NCBI RefSeq assembly: GCF_009914755.1
Contig: NC_060943.1
From: the human T2T-CHM13v2.0 reference genome, Homo sapiens
DNA: 64,000 nt
Reading direction: 5' to 3' (one strand)
Part shown: positions 2,356-60,710 of the stretch, one piece after another
Layout: every line of letters starts with the position of its first letter
Numbering within the stretch: the first letter of the stretch is position 1
The notes under the pieces: model-generated
The model's input: only the letters and a program-made list of their open reading frames with translations
What the model was told of the DNA's origin: nothing
The model's database searches: none
Position numbers and translations under genes: made by a program

Positions 2356-3112
2356 CTAGGAGGTTAGATATCTGGAAGGCAGGTGAGTTATTGGAGAAGG
2401 AGTAAAAATTAATCAAATAAATAAATAATTGGGTTCACCTAATGTCTAACATGGTCTCTTGGGAACAGAGAATGAGCAGGAAAAATTTCCTTACTGTCCA
2501 GACAGGAGTCCACAGAGAAATCAGACACTTACGGGTTAGTAAGTTCCAGCAGTAAGAGGGGAGGTGCCTAATGAGCAGATACAGGGAGCTGTGGCCCTCA
2601 GAGAATACAATAGAGAAAAAAAATGTCTAACAAACCCACTAATAGATTAACCCTCACAAGGAAATAATTGCAAAGTAAAGCTTGCTATCATACCCCAAAA
2701 GTAGGCTAGCTAATCTGAGTCCCAGACTGGGGACTGGGCTGAATGGGACCCTTCAGCCCATTCCAGGTGGGAATGGAAGTTCAATTGTTAAGACTCTGCA
2801 CAGGACATGATCTCATTCCTTTTTATGGCTGCATAGTATTCCATGGTGTATATGTACCACGTTTTCTTCAACCAGTCTGTTGTTGATGGGCATTTAGGTC
2901 GAGTCCATGTTTTCACTCCAATTAATGGATCTACTTTAAAAAATAGTGGTCATCTTTTGCCGCTATGTAGAACATAAATCTGGCTAGAGGACCTATGCCT
3001 CACTCTTTCCTGCTGTCTCGTCTGGGGACAGAGCTTCATCCTCTATCATCAACCATTCAGGGTAAAATTCAGACTTCCATCTGGAGATCCTCTTCTCTGA
3101 GACCCCATCCAG
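2356..3112 (+). promoter_or_regulatory. Inverted (plus-strand) orphan copy of the upstream exon and promoter module
   Basis: Reverse-complement homology to the other modules: TCTCTTGGGA at 2455-2464, CTAATGAG at about 2568-2575 and donor CAG|GTGAGC after 3112. Confidence 0.65.
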
Positions 3113-3618
3113 GTGAGCCCAGGAGCCCTCAGCAGGTTTCATGGGAAAGGTTCAGAGAGAACGGAAGCTGGGAATGTTTACCTGAAGTCACCTGAGAGCC
3201 AATCCAACTTAGGCCAGCGCCAAGAGGTTGCTATGTTTGTTTGCTTAGTTGACTGATTATTTCATAATCAATCTATTTAGTATGCTAAAAAGAGCAGTGT
3301 CTGTTAGACTCAGCAATGCAGAGACCACTGCTGACAATTAAGTGGTGGGAATGGAATTCCAATTGGTAAGACTGAAGAAGGAATGGGAGCTAAAAAGTGG
3401 TGCTGGTAACATCAGTTCATAGTCAAGGAGTTTTGCAGGTAAGAGAGAAAAAAAACTGAGTATTAAGTGTAAAGGATATGCAGCAAAGTGAGGGCTTTTA
3501 AAATATTTTTAATATTGGGTGTATTTTGAGTATGTTCCTGTATCCATTAAAAAGATCACACCAATGTATTATTTGCAAATGCTACCTTGCCACAGCAGTT
3601 AATAAGTCATACATTTTA

Positions 3619-3959
3619 TTTTATTTATTTATTTATTTATTTATTTATTTATTTATTTATTTATTTATTTTTGAGACGGAGTCTCGCTCTGTCCCCTAGA
3701 CTGGAGCGCAGTAGTGGCACGATCTCGGCTCACTGCAAGCTCCGCCTCCCAGGTTCACGGCGTTCTCTTGCCTCAGCCTCCCGAGTAGCTGCGACTACAG
3801 TTGCCCGCCACTACGCCCGGCTAATTTTTTTGAATTTTTTAGTAGAGATGGGGTTTCACCGTGTAACCCAGGATGGTCTCGATCTCCTGACCTCGTGATC
3901 CGCCCGTCTCTGCCTCCCAAAATGCTGGGATTACAGGCGTGAGCCACCGCGCCCGGCTG
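3619..3959 (-). mobile_element. AluY with (TTTA)n tail
   Basis: CpG-rich. TSD ATAAGTCATACATTTTA at 3602-3618 and 3960-3976. Confidence 0.92.
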
Positions 3960-4469
3960 ATAAGTCATACATTTTAAAGTATCTTTTCTCATGCGGGTTA
4001 TCCAGATGAAAAAAATATGTTTATTTAATAAGTGAAAAGGGGTATGATAGCAAGCTTTACTTTGCAATTACTTCCTTACTTGTGAGGCTTAATCGATTAG
4101 TGGGTTTGTTAGATAGTTCCTGTTTCTATTGCAAACAGTCTTTGCGAGATCTTTGCTTTTGTATAGCGAGTTTGCAGTGTTTTCATTCCTGTATTTGATT
4201 GCATTTTTTTCAAACATAAGAATGGGAGTTGGTGAACGTTTTTTCACCAACGTTGTTGTTTGCCATTTAGTTCTTTTTGTATTTATAGATGCGCTTGGGG
4301 TGAATGCGTTAAAGTTTATCAGTTTTGTGCGGTCAGGTCTATCAGTGGGTCACACTGTGTATCTCCCTTCTGTTGCATTTTAGATAGTTTAGAGAGTTTA
4401 AAAAGCTTTCTACATATTTCATCGCAATAAATCACCTTTTATATGTATTTCCACCTTATTTCACACATT

Positions 4470-57245: not shown

Positions 57246-57787
57246 AAATACGCTTTTTTTTAGCAGTAGAAGAAACAGTATTTAAAGCCATAATTTCATT
57301 CCTATCTAAGTATAAATGGATCCAAATATGCTTACGAAAAAGATCTTAAGTTGAATGTAATTTTAGTTTGTATTCAATTGTAGGTTGTGAGTGCAAAAGA
57401 GTATCTTCCACAAGATGGCAGTAGATTACTGCTTTAAAATATAGATCTGCATATTCTCATTTATATGCAGAATCTAAATAATCAAACTCATAGGGATAGA
57501 GAGGAGTAAGGCAGTGGTTACCAGGGACTGGAGTATGGGGTGGGGTGGATGCAGAAAGCGGAGACATTAGATAAAGGATATAAAGTTAGCAAGAATGGGT
57601 TCTAGTAATCTATTGCACAGCATGATGACTTTAGTTGAGAATAATGTATTATATATTTCCAAAGTGCTAGTATCATAGATTTTAAATGTTCTCAACCACA
57701 AAGACATGATAAGTGTATGAAGTGACCGATACATTAATTAGGTTCCTTTAATCATTCTACAATGAATACATATAAAATAACATCTTA

Positions 57788-58318
57788 TCCTGTGTTAGTT
57801 TGCTGAGAATGATGGTTTCCAGCTTCATCCATGTCCCTGCAAAGGACATGAACTCATCCTTTTTTATGGCTGCATAGTATTCTATGGTGTATAGGTGCCA
57901 CATTTACTTTATCCAGTCTACCATTGACGGGCATTTGGGTTGGTTCCAAGTCTTTGCTATCGTGAACAGTGCTGCAATAAACATACGTGTGCATGTGTCT
58001 TTATAGTAGAATGATTTATAATCCTTTGGGTATATACCCAGTAATGGGATTGCTAGAAAACCAAACACTGCATGTTCTCACTCACAAGTGGGAGTTGAAC
58101 AATGAGAACACACGGACACAAGGAGGGGAACATCACACACCGGGGCCTGTCGGTGGGTGGAGGGCTAGCGGAGGGATAGCCTAATGCAGATGATGACGGC
58201 TTGATGGGTGCAGCAAACCACCATGGCACGTGTATACCTATGTAACAAACCTACGTGTTCTGCACATGTATCCCAGAACTTGAAGTATAATAAAAAATAA
58301 AAATAGAAATAAAAATAA
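57788..58318 (+). mobile_element. 5'-inverted L1PA
   Basis: Antisense at about 57788-58053, then sense 3'UTR with A tail. TSD AAAATAACATCTTA. Confidence 0.82.
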
Positions 58319-59383
58319 AATAACATCTTACTGCACCCCACAAGAATGCAATGATTTTTGTCAATCAAAACAGAAATTAAAACATTAAATTAAAAATAAA
58401 AATAGATCTAATTACAAAAGGAAGCAATAAGCAAAAACAGATGTGAAATAAGATGGAAATACTTATGAAGGATGATATATTTCTAGCAATGATGCAGAAG
58501 AATTTTCTAAGTCAAAAAACAATTGGAGAGGTGGGAACAAATTATGACAAACAGATTTGAGCACACAACGCTTATAAACTTTCACACATTTTCCTGATAT
58601 ACACCTCTACATACATAAAAATTAAACATTATTCAGCAAAGTTGGTGAAAAAGCTACAATTTCTTGTTTGAAAGAATGCAGTCAAAAGAATGAAAACATT
58701 CAGACGTCAGAACATGAAAGCAGGGAACTTGCATAATTTGCAATAGAGAAAATAAAAAGCAAACAAATCCAGCCTCACCAGAAGAAGAAAATAATTGCAA
58801 GCAAAAACTCTTTAGTATTCTCATTTTGACCTATTGTATAACATTTATTTTTCATGTGAATATCCAACATGAGAGAAGAGACTATGAAATGTATGTCTTG
58901 TGAACTGCTGTTGCAAGATGGAATTTACAAGTAATCCATTGGTGTGGATCTTTGCAGTTAAGCACAGAAACATGCTCAAATACGCCTCTCTTAAAATTTG
59001 TTCCAAAGTCTCTCAATTCATTGCACATCATTCCACACCAAATATTCTACTATCCTGCTTCTTTCACTGCAAAATTTCTAGTATGTGTTGTAATTTACTG
59101 GAACCACTTTTTGTCTTCCATTCCTTCTTCAATCTCATCCAAATCAACTTCCTTTATTATCACTTAGTTGTCAGCAATGATCCCTGCATTGCTTAGTATG
59201 ACAAACACTTCTCTTTTTAACATATTAACTATATTAAATATAAATTAGTCAACCAGGCAAACAAACACACATCAATCTCTCAGCTTGACTTAGGCTAGTT
59301 TGGCTTTCAGGTAACACTAGGTAAATATTCTTGACTTATATTGCCTCTGAACATTTTCTGCAGTACCTACTGGGCGGACTCAC

Positions 59384-60710
59384 CTGTATGGGGTCTCAGA
59401 GAGGAAGGTCTCCATATGGAAGTCTGAGCTCCTCCCTGGATGCTGATAATGGAGAATGAAGCTCTGTCCCCAGACAAGACAGTAAGAAGAAGTGAAACAT
59501 CAGCACCTTAGCCAGACATATGTCTACAAACCATTCACATCACATCCAGTCCGAAGCTGTTACAGTCTTAAGGACAATAGCAGATGAAATAGATTTTTAC
59601 AATTCCCTGTATCTATACATCAGACAAATTTCCCTTTTTTCACTCCAATCCATGAGCACCTAATCTTTTTTCATCTGTTGACTTTTAAAAAAGTTATTTA
59701 AATAGTTTTTTGGGGAACAGGTATTGTTTGGTTACATGAATAAGTTCTTCAGTGGTGATTTCTTTTTTTTTTTTGAGACAGAGTCTCGCTCTGTCGCCCA
59801 GGCTGGAGTGCAGTGGCGCGATCTCAGCTCTCTGCAAGCTCCGCCTTCCGGGTTCACGCCATTCTTCCGCCTCAGCCTCCTTAGTAGCCGGGACTACAGG
59901 CGCCCACCACCACGCTCAGCTAATTTTTTGTATTTTTAGTAGAGACGGGGTTTCACCCTGTTAGCCAGGATGGTCTCGATCTCCTGACCTCGTGATCTGC
60001 CCGCCTCGGCCTCCAAAAGTGCAGGGATTACAGGCATGAGCCACCGCGCCCGGCCTTTAGTGGTGATTTCTGAGATTTTGGTGCACTCATCACCTGAGCA
60101 GTGTACGCTGTACCCCATGGATAGTCTTTTATTCCCCATCCCCCTCCCACCCTTTCCCCAAGTCCCCAAAATCCATTGTATCATTCTTATGCCTCTGCAT
60201 CCTCGTAGCTTAGCTCCCACTCATGAGTGAGAGCCTATGATGTTTGGTTTTCCATTCCTGAGTTACTTCACTTAGAATAATGGTCTTCAATTTCCATCCA
60301 GATTGCTACGAATGCCATCAATTCATCCTTTTCATGGCTGAGTAGTGTTCCACGGTGTGTGTGTGTATATAACAATTTCTTTAGCCACTCATTGTTTGGT
60401 GGGCATTTAGGTTGGTTCCATATTTTTGCAATTATGAGTTGCATGAGCACCTGATTTTTCGTTGGACACAGGTCTGGAAAAGAAGAAACATTTTTCTGCT
60501 GATTCTGTTCCAAAGAGATCAGGCTAGAAGTCAGGTGAATCCAGACTTCATTACTTCTCTGTGAAATCTCCCACCTGACGATGGTCTAACCTCCTTAGCA
60601 CTTTTGCTGAAACTTGAGTTAAAATTGTCTCCAAAGATTAAGACGAAGAATATGTCTTCACCAGGGCCCTTGGAAACTCAACGTATTGACTTCTGGTAAG
60701 AACATAGTTT
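59384..60710 (-). promoter_or_regulatory. Orphan upstream exon and promoter module with no CDS of its own, split by an L1/AluY insertion
   Basis: Paralogous module with donor CAG|GTGAGT after 59384 and ATG at 59415. Homology resumes at about 60442 after the insertion. Confidence 0.65.
59664..60441 (-). mobile_element. L1 3' fragment with nested AluY (about 59760-60055) inside the orphan promoter
   Basis: CATGAGCACCT(A/G)AT repeated at about 59651 and 60442. Confidence 0.78.

What the first reader, a model, noticed from the sequence alone, without database searches (positions are those of the whole stretch)
3081..59415. Hidden coding mini-frame in all six upstream exons, with reciprocal start-codon loss among paralogs
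Seen: the last 32 nt before the donor read without stops and in phase 2 in every copy. OR7A5: AAG-ELFLGEIPS (20668-20637). OR7A10: ATT-ETFISENPT (34106-34075). Frameshifted copy: ATG-DDTFLPENPS (40452-40418, 35 nt, so the only indel is 3 nt). OR7A2P: ATG-EAFLSENQS. Orphan: ATG-ETFLSETPY (59415-59384). Inverted orphan: CTG-EILFSETPS (3081-3112). AAG, ATT and CTG are each one substitution from ATG. The acceptor-to-start leader is 13 nt (in frame) in three genes and 12 nt in OR7A10. Inference: the ancestral OR7A had two in-frame starts and an optional extracellular leader of about 15 aa. OR7A5 and OR7A10 lost the exon-1 ATG, while OR7A2P lost the exon-2 ATG.
Basis: partly seen in the sequence, partly recalled or inferred. 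Interest (0 to 1): 0.8.

Follow-up and report, generated by a model that had tools for sequence, protein, structure and literature searches.

The report
Spare start codon in OR7A first exons
The first, normally untranslated exon of these smell-receptor genes ends in a short stretch that lines up in frame with the receptor; it seems to be the real start for one so-called pseudogene (OR7A2P), as is already annotated for its relative OR7E24, and ordinary untranslated sequence in the other copies.

Summary
All six mini-frames, their coordinates, the 3-nt indel and the 13/12-nt leaders were confirmed.

Being stop-free is not beyond chance. In homologous flanking DNA, 11.1% of 522 start columns are stop-free in all six copies.

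Three more copies lie just outside the window. Over all nine:
- ATG survives in 4; the neutral expectation is 3.84.
- One copy has an in-frame TGA.
- The mini-frame is no better conserved than the intron, 0.677 against 0.680.
- Tree-based changes are 11 synonymous to 20 non-synonymous.

None of the three intact genes can make the leader. OR7A5 reads AAG. OR7A10 reads ATT and is out of frame. In OR7A17 a SINE-like insert stops the frame.

One part of the idea holds. OR7A2P has GTG at the usual start, and exon-1 ATG plus exon 2 gives an intact 324-codon frame. NCBI models of orangutans and gibbons start MEAFLSENQSRNINQV. All eight catarrhine sequences carry that V, are intact, and diverge no more than intact paralogs.

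Curated OR7E24 starts in the homologous exon. This is a new member of the known split olfactory receptor class (PMC7055050). Interest is moderate.

The parts
52749..52780 (-). OR7A2P exon-1 mini-frame: ATG plus 9 codons plus 2 nt, then donor AG|GTAAGT. Probable true start of the OR7A2 receptor frame.
   Evidence: Read. The same 10 residues head the NCBI orangutan and gibbon OR7A2 proteins.
49379..50321 (-). OR7A2P exon 2. Acceptor tag| at 50322-50324, 13-nt leader at 50321-50309, GTG at 50308-50306 where paralogs have ATG. The receptor frame is uninterrupted up to the stop codon at 49381-49379. With exon 1 it makes 324 codons. The intron is 2427 nt (52748-50322).
   Evidence: The unspliced sequence upstream of the acceptor has no in-frame ATG after the nearest in-frame stop.
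20637..20668 (-). OR7A5 exon-1 stretch with AAG in place of ATG. In frame with the receptor through the 13-nt leader (13817-13805), but with no start codon. It is 5' UTR.
   Evidence: and the RefSeq exon table given with the finding.
34075..34106 (-). OR7A10 exon-1 stretch with ATT in place of ATG and a TAG directly upstream in frame. The 12-nt leader (27452-27441) puts it out of frame, and it runs into a TGA that overlaps the receptor ATG. It is 5' UTR.
40418..40452 (-). OR7A8P exon-1 stretch: ATG and 35 nt (one extra codon). It is in frame through the 13-nt leader (38522-38510) with the receptor ATG (38509-38507). The receptor itself is frameshifted near 38081.
59384..59415 (-). Orphan first exon with ATG and a consensus donor CAG|GTGAGT, and no receptor coding region of its own. 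It lies 6.6 kb upstream of OR7A2P exon 1 on the same strand. If spliced to OR7A2P exon 2 it would also be in frame; that use is inferred, not shown.
3081..3112 (+). Inverted orphan first exon with CTG in place of ATG and donor CAG|GTGAGC. No receptor coding region follows on the + strand.

Best explanation
The 32-nt stretch is the 3' end of the shared first exon of the OR7A and OR7E genes. Because the exon ends in phase 2 and the second exon begins 13 nt before the receptor's usual ATG, any ATG in this stretch is in frame with the receptor.

In most copies this has no consequence. The stretch is 5' UTR and drifts. The ATG has been lost in 5 of 9 copies, one copy has a stop, and all three intact human OR7A genes have lost the ability to make the leader.

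In two lineages the upstream ATG became the only usable start, and there the stretch is truly coding.
- OR7A2: ATG to GTG, before the catarrhine ancestor.
- OR7E: ACA or ACG in 30 of 30 sampled copies.

The resulting receptor carries 14-15 extra N-terminal residues, whose sequence itself is hardly constrained.

Shown: the frame relation, the intact 324-codon OR7A2P frame, the shared V, and the paralog-like protein divergence of OR7A2 across eight catarrhines.

Inferred: that ribosomes actually start at the exon-1 ATG, and that exon 1 is spliced to exon 2 in human.

Human OR7A2P also has Q for R in MAYDRF and L for F in KAFSTC, so the human copy may be dying for other reasons.
For: - Frame and letters.
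- OR7A2 orthologs: 4 of 8 catarrhine proteins start with the exon-1 leader (two Pongo, Hylobates; Nomascus contains it). 8 of 8 have V at the old start and an intact 309-residue core.
- Hominoid against Old World monkey differences are 14-21 of 309 for OR7A2, 15-31 for OR7A10 and 13-18 for OR7A17.
- There is no in-frame ATG in the unspliced human intron next to the acceptor.
- OR7E24 has a curated split coding region: 29 nt in the homologous exon, phase 2, a 13-nt leader and ACA at the old start.
- OR7E copies: 29 of 30 first exons keep that ATG, and 30 of 30 second exons lack the usual ATG.
- Drift elsewhere: ATG in 4 of 9 copies against 3.84 expected. Identity is 0.677 against 0.680 in the intron. 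Changes are 11 synonymous to 20 non-synonymous. One copy has TGA. The OR7A17 frame ends inside a SINE-like insert.
- Published class: PMC7055050, passages and section 7 read.
Against: - No transcript or protein data could be consulted, so splicing of OR7A2P exon 1 to exon 2 in human is unshown. RefSeq calls the locus a pseudogene.
- The two Old World monkey species have three models with other N-termini: one from a different or rearranged upstream exon and two reading through the intron. The exon-1 ATG is therefore documented only in apes.
- The ape proteins are automatic gene models, which favour long open frames.
- If the start of transcription lies far upstream, as it does in OR7A17, out-of-frame ATGs would precede the mini-frame ATG. 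I read this from the letters.
- Pooled pN/pS in the claimed frame is 0.40 against about 1.1 in the other two frames. Only 4.2% of 144 flank windows are as low. Some past constraint in more copies is therefore not excluded.
- No Pan ortholog above 90% identity is among the 120 best hits.
Confidence: 0.65

Rival explanations
1. The leader is a selected, optional extracellular extension of OR7A receptors in general, made from a second in-frame start, and it has been lost reciprocally in different paralogs.
For: - Pooled pN/pS is 0.40 in the claimed frame against 1.12 and 1.09 in the other frames. It lies in the lowest 4.2% of 144 flank windows.
- The only indel inside the mini-frame is 3 nt.
- The 13-nt leader is kept in 7 of 9 OR7A second exons. 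It is also kept in OR7D2, OR7D4, OR7C1, OR7E24, OR1M1 and OR1I1, while OR7G2 has 16 nt.
- One pangolin OR7E-like model carries both an exon-1 type leader and the usual M.
Against: - ATG is kept in 4 of 9 copies against 3.84 expected under drift.
- One copy has TGA.
- Conservation is no higher than in the intron, and lower than in the 5' part of the same exon: 0.677 against 0.680 and 0.766.
- Tree-based counts are 11 synonymous to 20 non-synonymous. The low pooled ratio comes mostly from a few synonymous changes on the one branch between the two clades.
- All three intact human OR7A genes cannot make the leader.
- The peptide is not conserved between OR7A and OR7E.
- The pangolin model is a chimera of two receptor pieces.
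Confidence: 0.12
2. Nothing here is translated. The open frames are chance in related copies. OR7A2 either starts at the GTG (non-AUG initiation), giving a normal-length receptor, or is a long-lived pseudogene.
For: - 11.1% of 522 flank start columns are stop-free in all six copies.
- RefSeq labels OR7A2P a pseudogene.
- Human OR7A2P has Q at the R of MAYDRF. R is found at 236 of 254 motif matches in the fetched homologs. It also has L at the F of KAFSTC, where F is found at 159 of 162.
- The ape N-termini are automatic models.
Against: - A pseudogene would not be expected to stay intact in 8 of 8 catarrhine sequences with divergence like its intact paralogs.
- The GTG has C at -3, a weak context (read).
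- A scanning ribosome meets the in-frame exon-1 ATG first, with no stop before the receptor.
- The next in-frame ATG downstream would remove the N-terminus and part of the first membrane helix. The 276-residue orangutan model P0048 shows this.
Confidence: 0.15
3. The upstream ATG is mainly a brake on translation, as an upstream start or upstream open reading frame. It is removed by selection in genes that are still in use, rather than being a source of protein.
For: - 3 of 3 intact human OR7A genes have disabled the in-frame extension, in three different ways.
- In OR7A17 the ATG now heads a short frame that ends in the insert.
- PMC7055050 reports in-frame upstream ATGs in 13.6% of human protein-coding OR genes and notes that such ATGs lower translation (passage seen).
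Against: - Three genes are too few to prove a pattern.
- Loss of ATG matches the neutral expectation.
- This does not explain how OR7A2 and OR7E24 make a receptor without the usual ATG.
Confidence: 0.08

Closest known systems
Split olfactory receptor genes, class 1 of Barnes et al. 2020 (PMC7055050; passages and section 7 read)
   Same: - The locus is labelled a pseudogene because the conserved initiator ATG is missing.
- An ATG in the upstream exon gives an intact frame of about 320 residues.
- The intron falls in the extracellular N-terminal part.
- The intron is 2427 nt, inside their human range of 1384-7585 bp.
   Different: Their list of 13 human genes is in a supplement that I could not open, and 'OR7' occurs 0 times in their main text. 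Whether OR7A2P or OR7E24 is on the list is unknown. They required transcript evidence, which I do not have for OR7A2P.
OR7E24, RefSeq NM_001386108.1 (curated, 'BestRefSeq')
   Same: It has a homologous first exon (alignment). The coding part ends in phase 2, the leader in exon 2 is 13 nt, and the usual ATG is replaced, here by ACA.
   Different: - Its ATG is 29 nt before the donor, against 32 nt in OR7A.
- The column that aligns with the OR7A ATG is GTG in 26 of 30 OR7E copies.
- The leader peptide (MAQQRGSAAQ) is unrelated in sequence to MEAFLSENQS.
- The loss of the usual ATG is a separate event.
In-frame upstream ATGs and upstream open reading frames in OR 5' UTRs (PMC7055050, Table 1 text seen)
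   Same: The copies at OR7A8P and OR7A17 are ordinary examples. OR7A8P has an in-frame upstream ATG. In OR7A17 the upstream frame stops before the receptor.
   Different: Here the same upstream ATG can be followed through a whole paralog family, and in two lineages it took over as the only start.
NCBI models 'putative olfactory receptor 7A2' of Pongo pygmaeus, P. abelii, Hylobates moloch and Nomascus leucogenys (P0029, P0030, P0022, P0020)
   Same: These are orthologs, 95-96% identical to the human frame, with the same 15-residue leader and the same V.
   Different: They keep R in MAYDRF and F in KAFSTC, whereas human has Q and L. They are annotated as protein-coding, whereas the human locus is annotated as a pseudogene.

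Membership tests
Split OR gene (criteria stated in PMC7055050), applied to OR7A2P | Intact open reading frame of about 300-350 residues spanning two exons | tested here: met
   32 nt of exon 1 plus 940 nt of exon 2 give 324 codons with no stop.
Split OR gene (criteria stated in PMC7055050), applied to OR7A2P | Initiator Met and splice junction conserved in orthologs of other mammals | tested here: inconclusive
   Met in 4 ape proteins. The Mandrillus and Papio models have other N-termini. Only protein models could be compared, not genome DNA.
Split OR gene (criteria stated in PMC7055050), applied to OR7A2P | Transcript evidence for the exon 1 to exon 2 junction and protein-coding-like expression | not testable with these tools
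RefSeq lists no transcript for OR7A2P.
Split OR gene (criteria stated in PMC7055050), applied to OR7A2P | Seven-helix OR domain with an extracellular N-terminus, and the intron in the N-terminal part | tested here: met
   The human and ape OR7A2 proteins carry the precomputed domains PF13853 and PF00001. The junction lies 5 codons before the old start.
Working class II olfactory receptor, applied to human OR7A2P | Conserved signalling motifs MAYDR[FY] and KAFSTC | tested here: not met
   Human has MAYDQF and KALSTC. R is found at 236 of 254 motif matches and F at 159 of 162 in the fetched homologs. The other seven catarrhine sequences (gorilla, orangutans, gibbons, mandrill, baboon) keep R and F.
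Protein-coding exon, applied to the mini-frame in the other five window copies | Start codon, in-frame junction to a receptor coding region, and conservation above neutral flanks | tested here: not met
   - No ATG in OR7A5, OR7A10 or the inverted orphan.
- OR7A10 is out of frame.
- The two orphans have no coding region of their own.
- OR7A8P is frameshifted.
- Identity is 0.677 against 0.680 in the intron.

The most novel reading that the evidence does not exclude
OR7A2P is not a dead gene but a split-coding receptor whose only start codon lies in exon 1. It has been kept for the whole of catarrhine evolution and is still intact in the human reference. More broadly, the phase-2 donor plus 13-nt leader of OR7 (and OR1) genes would act as a standing spare start. 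That spare start let the usual ATG be lost twice independently (OR7A2 and OR7E) without killing the receptor.
Probability: 0.25. Interest if true: 0.55.

Novelty: new member of a known kind. Interest (0 to 1): 0.4.

Why it matters
If the exon-1 start is used, a locus counted among human receptor pseudogenes is, or very recently was, a coding gene with an unusual N-terminus. That changes counts of intact receptors. It also matters for anyone who clones the single coding exon for ligand screens, because that clone would lack a start codon.

The case also shows how a chance in-frame upstream ATG can rescue a gene that loses its start codon, seen twice in one family.

It does not show a new kind of gene structure. 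Split receptor genes were described in 2020, and the homologous OR7E24 case is already curated.

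Tried and rejected
- Chance test of the open frame. 11.1% of 522 flank start columns are open in all six copies. With nine copies and nine codons, 28% of 144 windows have no stop and 66% have at most one. I rejected the open frame as evidence.

- Conservation by segment. There is no excess in the mini-frame.

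- Codon-pattern tests. Pooled pN/pS is 0.40 and the third-position excess is 1.69. Both are marginal, at 4.2% and 4.9% of 144 overlapping, non-independent windows. The tree-based count of 11 synonymous to 20 non-synonymous removes most of the signal.

- A search for other annotated proteins with the leader.
  - Residues 1-40 of the orangutan protein found only OR7A2 orthologs: 10 candidates were scored, and a further 3 known from samples alone were left out.
  - Residues 1-40 of OR7A5 with its leader gave 1141 proteins, of which 120 were listed.
  - Of 181 fetched proteins with a recognisable N-terminal motif, 32 have 4-60 extra residues. By eye, most of these read through the pyrimidine tract of the intron. 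I did not count them as evidence. This includes the cat and hyaena models, which I first took for exon-1 leaders.
  - The pangolin model is a chimera.

- The bonobo protein named 'putative olfactory receptor 7A2' (P0136) is only 76% identical to human OR7A2P, so it is not the ortholog.

- Literature.
  - 'OR7A2P': 0 papers.
  - 'OR7A2' as a whole word: 1 paper, on tsetse flies (listing only).
  - 'OR7E24': 30 papers, 15 listed by title and start of abstract, none of them on its start codon.
  - Supplementary File 3 of PMC7055050 lists the 13 human split genes.

- I did not check first exons of OR7D2, OR7D4, OR7G2, OR7C1, OR1M1 and OR1I1 beyond reading them. They show no obvious homology to the OR7A exon.

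- The repeat table lists no masked stretch of 100 bases or more over the OR7A17 insert. I call it SINE-like from 6 similar copies in the window and from recall of Alu sequence.

Full report
WHAT IS THERE.

Each is the last 32 nt (35 nt in OR7A8P) of a homologous first exon. Each ends in phase 2 and is followed by a consensus-like donor.

The second exons of OR7A5, OR7A8P and OR7A2P begin 13 nt before the receptor's usual start, so 2 + 13 nt make five in-frame codons. OR7A10 has 12 nt. There the frame shifts and meets a TGA that overlaps the receptor ATG.

OR7A2P has GTG where the others have ATG. tblastn finds only four receptor coding regions in the window, so the exons at 59.4 kb and 3.1 kb have no coding region of their own.

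MORE COPIES.

A search of the reference genome with the orphan exon gave 8 matches, all in chr19:14.94-15.05 Mb. The OR7A5 copy was not among them and was added from the annotation.

The three copies outside the window are as follows:
- OR7A17 exon 1: ATG GAG ACC TTC CTT TCA GAA AAC TCA GTA GG|gt.
- A copy upstream of OR7A1P: ACA, no ATG.
- A copy upstream of OR7A15P: ACA and an in-frame TGA.

So ATG is present in 4 of 9 copies and the frame is open in 8 of 9.

IS THE MINI-FRAME CONSTRAINED AMONG PARALOGS?

Homology between the copies runs about 250 nt upstream of the exon and about 330 nt into the intron. Mean pairwise identity by segment is:
- Mini-frame: 0.677.
- Intron +7..+60: 0.680.
- Intron +61..+200: 0.656.
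- 5' part of the same exon: 0.766.

The open frame is not beyond chance. All six copies are stop-free in 11.1% of 522 flank start columns.

Pooled pN/pS is 0.40 in the claimed frame, against 1.12 and 1.09 in the other two. That is lower than in all but 4.2% of 144 overlapping flank windows. However, a parsimony count on the tree gives 11 synonymous and 20 non-synonymous changes, split 11:8:12 by codon position. Several of the synonymous changes fall on internal branches of the tree, notably the one between the two clades.

On the tree of the nine regions, the five copies without ATG are not sisters that share a state. With root-to-tip lengths of 0.23-0.35 substitutions per site, drift alone predicts 3.84 of 9 copies keeping a 3-nt motif. 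Four do.

THE THREE INTACT GENES.

- OR7A5 has AAG.
- OR7A10 has ATT, an in-frame TAG just upstream, and a frame-breaking 12-nt leader.
- OR7A17 keeps ATG and the 13-nt leader. A SINE-like insert of about 190 nt sits right after the old ATG, and its target-site duplication repeats the start codon. The exon-1 frame, and the old ATG, now end at a TGA inside the insert. The receptor starts at the downstream copy, 200 nt on. The insert has 6 similar copies in the window.

None of the three can make the leader.

THE PART THAT HOLDS: OR7A2.

From the acceptor at 50321 the frame runs without a stop through the whole receptor. With the exon-1 ATG it is 324 codons. The unspliced intron offers no in-frame ATG after its nearest stop.

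The protein search returned 'putative olfactory receptor 7A2' of Pongo pygmaeus, P. abelii and Hylobates moloch. Each is 324 residues and starts MEAFL(S/P)ENQSRNI(N/D)(Q/H)VKAGN. A 376-residue Nomascus model contains the same leader.

The gorilla, Mandrillus and Papio sequences also have V at the old start. So the ATG-to-GTG change predates the catarrhine ancestor (inference from 8 of 8 sequences).

All eight are intact over the 309-residue core. Hominoid against Old World monkey differences are 14-21 of 309. The figures for the intact paralogs are 15-31 (OR7A10) and 13-18 (OR7A17). A gene without a start codon would not be expected to keep that constraint, and the in-frame exon-1 ATG is the obvious start.

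Caveats:
- The ape proteins are automatic models.
- The Old World monkey models have other N-termini.
- No Pan ortholog above 90% identity is among the 120 listed hits. The bonobo protein with the same name is a different paralog.
- I have no transcript data.

Human OR7A2P also has Q for the R of MAYDRF and L for the F of KAFSTC. These positions hold R at 236 of 254 and F at 159 of 162 motif matches in the fetched homologs. The human-gorilla distance is 9 of 309, against 6 for OR7A10 and 3 for OR7A17. This hints at recent relaxation, but the numbers are small.

THE PRECEDENT: OR7E24.

RefSeq's curated NM_001386108.1 has 29 coding nt in a first exon that aligns with the OR7A exon. It has phase 2, a 13-nt leader, and ACA at the old start.

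Among OR7E copies sampled from the genome:
- 29 of 30 first exons keep that ATG.
- The column aligned to the OR7A ATG is GTG in 26 and ATG in 4.
- 30 of 30 second exons have ACA (28) or ACG (2) at the old start.
- 21 of 30 share an in-frame TGA a few codons on.

So the same exon supplies the start codon in a second, independent lineage. The leader peptides of the two lineages are unrelated in sequence.

COMPARISON WITH WHAT IS KNOWN.

Barnes et al. 2020 (PMC7055050; passages and section 7 read) describe exactly this class. These are loci called pseudogenes for lack of the initiator ATG, where an ATG in the upstream exon gives an intact frame of about 320 residues. A second class has two isoforms that differ at the N-terminus.

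They also report in-frame upstream ATGs in 13.6% of human protein-coding OR genes. Their list of 13 human genes is in a closed supplement, and 'OR7' does not occur in their main text.

Searches for 'OR7A2P' (0 papers), 'OR7A2' (1 unrelated paper) and 'OR7E24' (30 papers, 15 seen as listing only) found no description of these start codons.

VERDICT.

The mini-frame is not a hidden coding exon in all six copies. In most it is drifting 5' UTR that happens to be in frame. In OR7A2P it is very likely the true start of a split receptor frame that was conserved across catarrhines, as it is in the curated OR7E24.

This is a new member of a known kind, of moderate interest. The ancestral two-start idea remains plausible but unproven, because no genome DNA of other species could be examined here.

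Noticed in passing
outside the window, G000 chr19:15008947-15009147 (locus L023): A SINE-like insert of about 190 nt, with an A-rich/(TAAA)n tail, sits right after the original OR7A17 start codon. The target-site duplication repeats the ATG. The upstream copy now heads a short frame that stops inside the insert, and the receptor uses the downstream copy.
   Followed up: partly
loci L029-L088 (OR7E copies genome-wide): The whole sampled OR7E subfamily lacks the usual ATG: 30 of 30 have ACA or ACG. 29 of 30 sampled first exons keep an ATG 29 nt before the donor, and 21 of 30 second exons share an in-frame TGA near the start of the receptor.
   Followed up: partly
window, about 20669-20748, 34107-34190, 40453-40535, 52781-52860, 59416-59495 (-) and 3000-3080 (+): The 5' part of the first exon is the best conserved segment of the duplicated unit: 0.766 mean pairwise identity against 0.62-0.68 in promoter, mini-frame and intron. 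It contains a short inverted repeat (TGTCT...AGACA).
   Followed up: no
window 20914-20924, 34359-34369, 40702-40712 (-): Exact TCCCACAGGGA lies 250-280 nt upstream of the donors of OR7A5, OR7A10 and OR7A8P. There are 4 matches with up to 1 mismatch against 1.42 expected. From recall it resembles the O/E-type sites of OR promoters. The OR7A2P copy is degenerate in the alignment.
   Followed up: no
outside the window, locus L028 (OR7A11P): OR7A11P has ATA at the usual start and a 14-nt leader. A bonobo protein model (P0165) has I at that position and an upstream start.
   Followed up: no
window 20637-20748 (-): RefSeq's OR7C1 select transcript uses the OR7A5 first exon as its own first exon, about 35 kb upstream of the OR7C1 coding exon (annotation given with the finding).
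   Followed up: no
window 52781-52895 (-): In OR7A2P the same reading frame stays open for about 38 codons upstream of the mini-frame ATG. The 376-residue Nomascus model translates the homologous stretch. This is probably chance plus the gene modeller's preference for long frames.
   Followed up: no
window 49382-50320 (-): The reference frame of OR7A2P differs at a few residues from the two public human protein entries P0018 and P0019, for example I against T in SLV(I/T)LQL.
   Followed up: no
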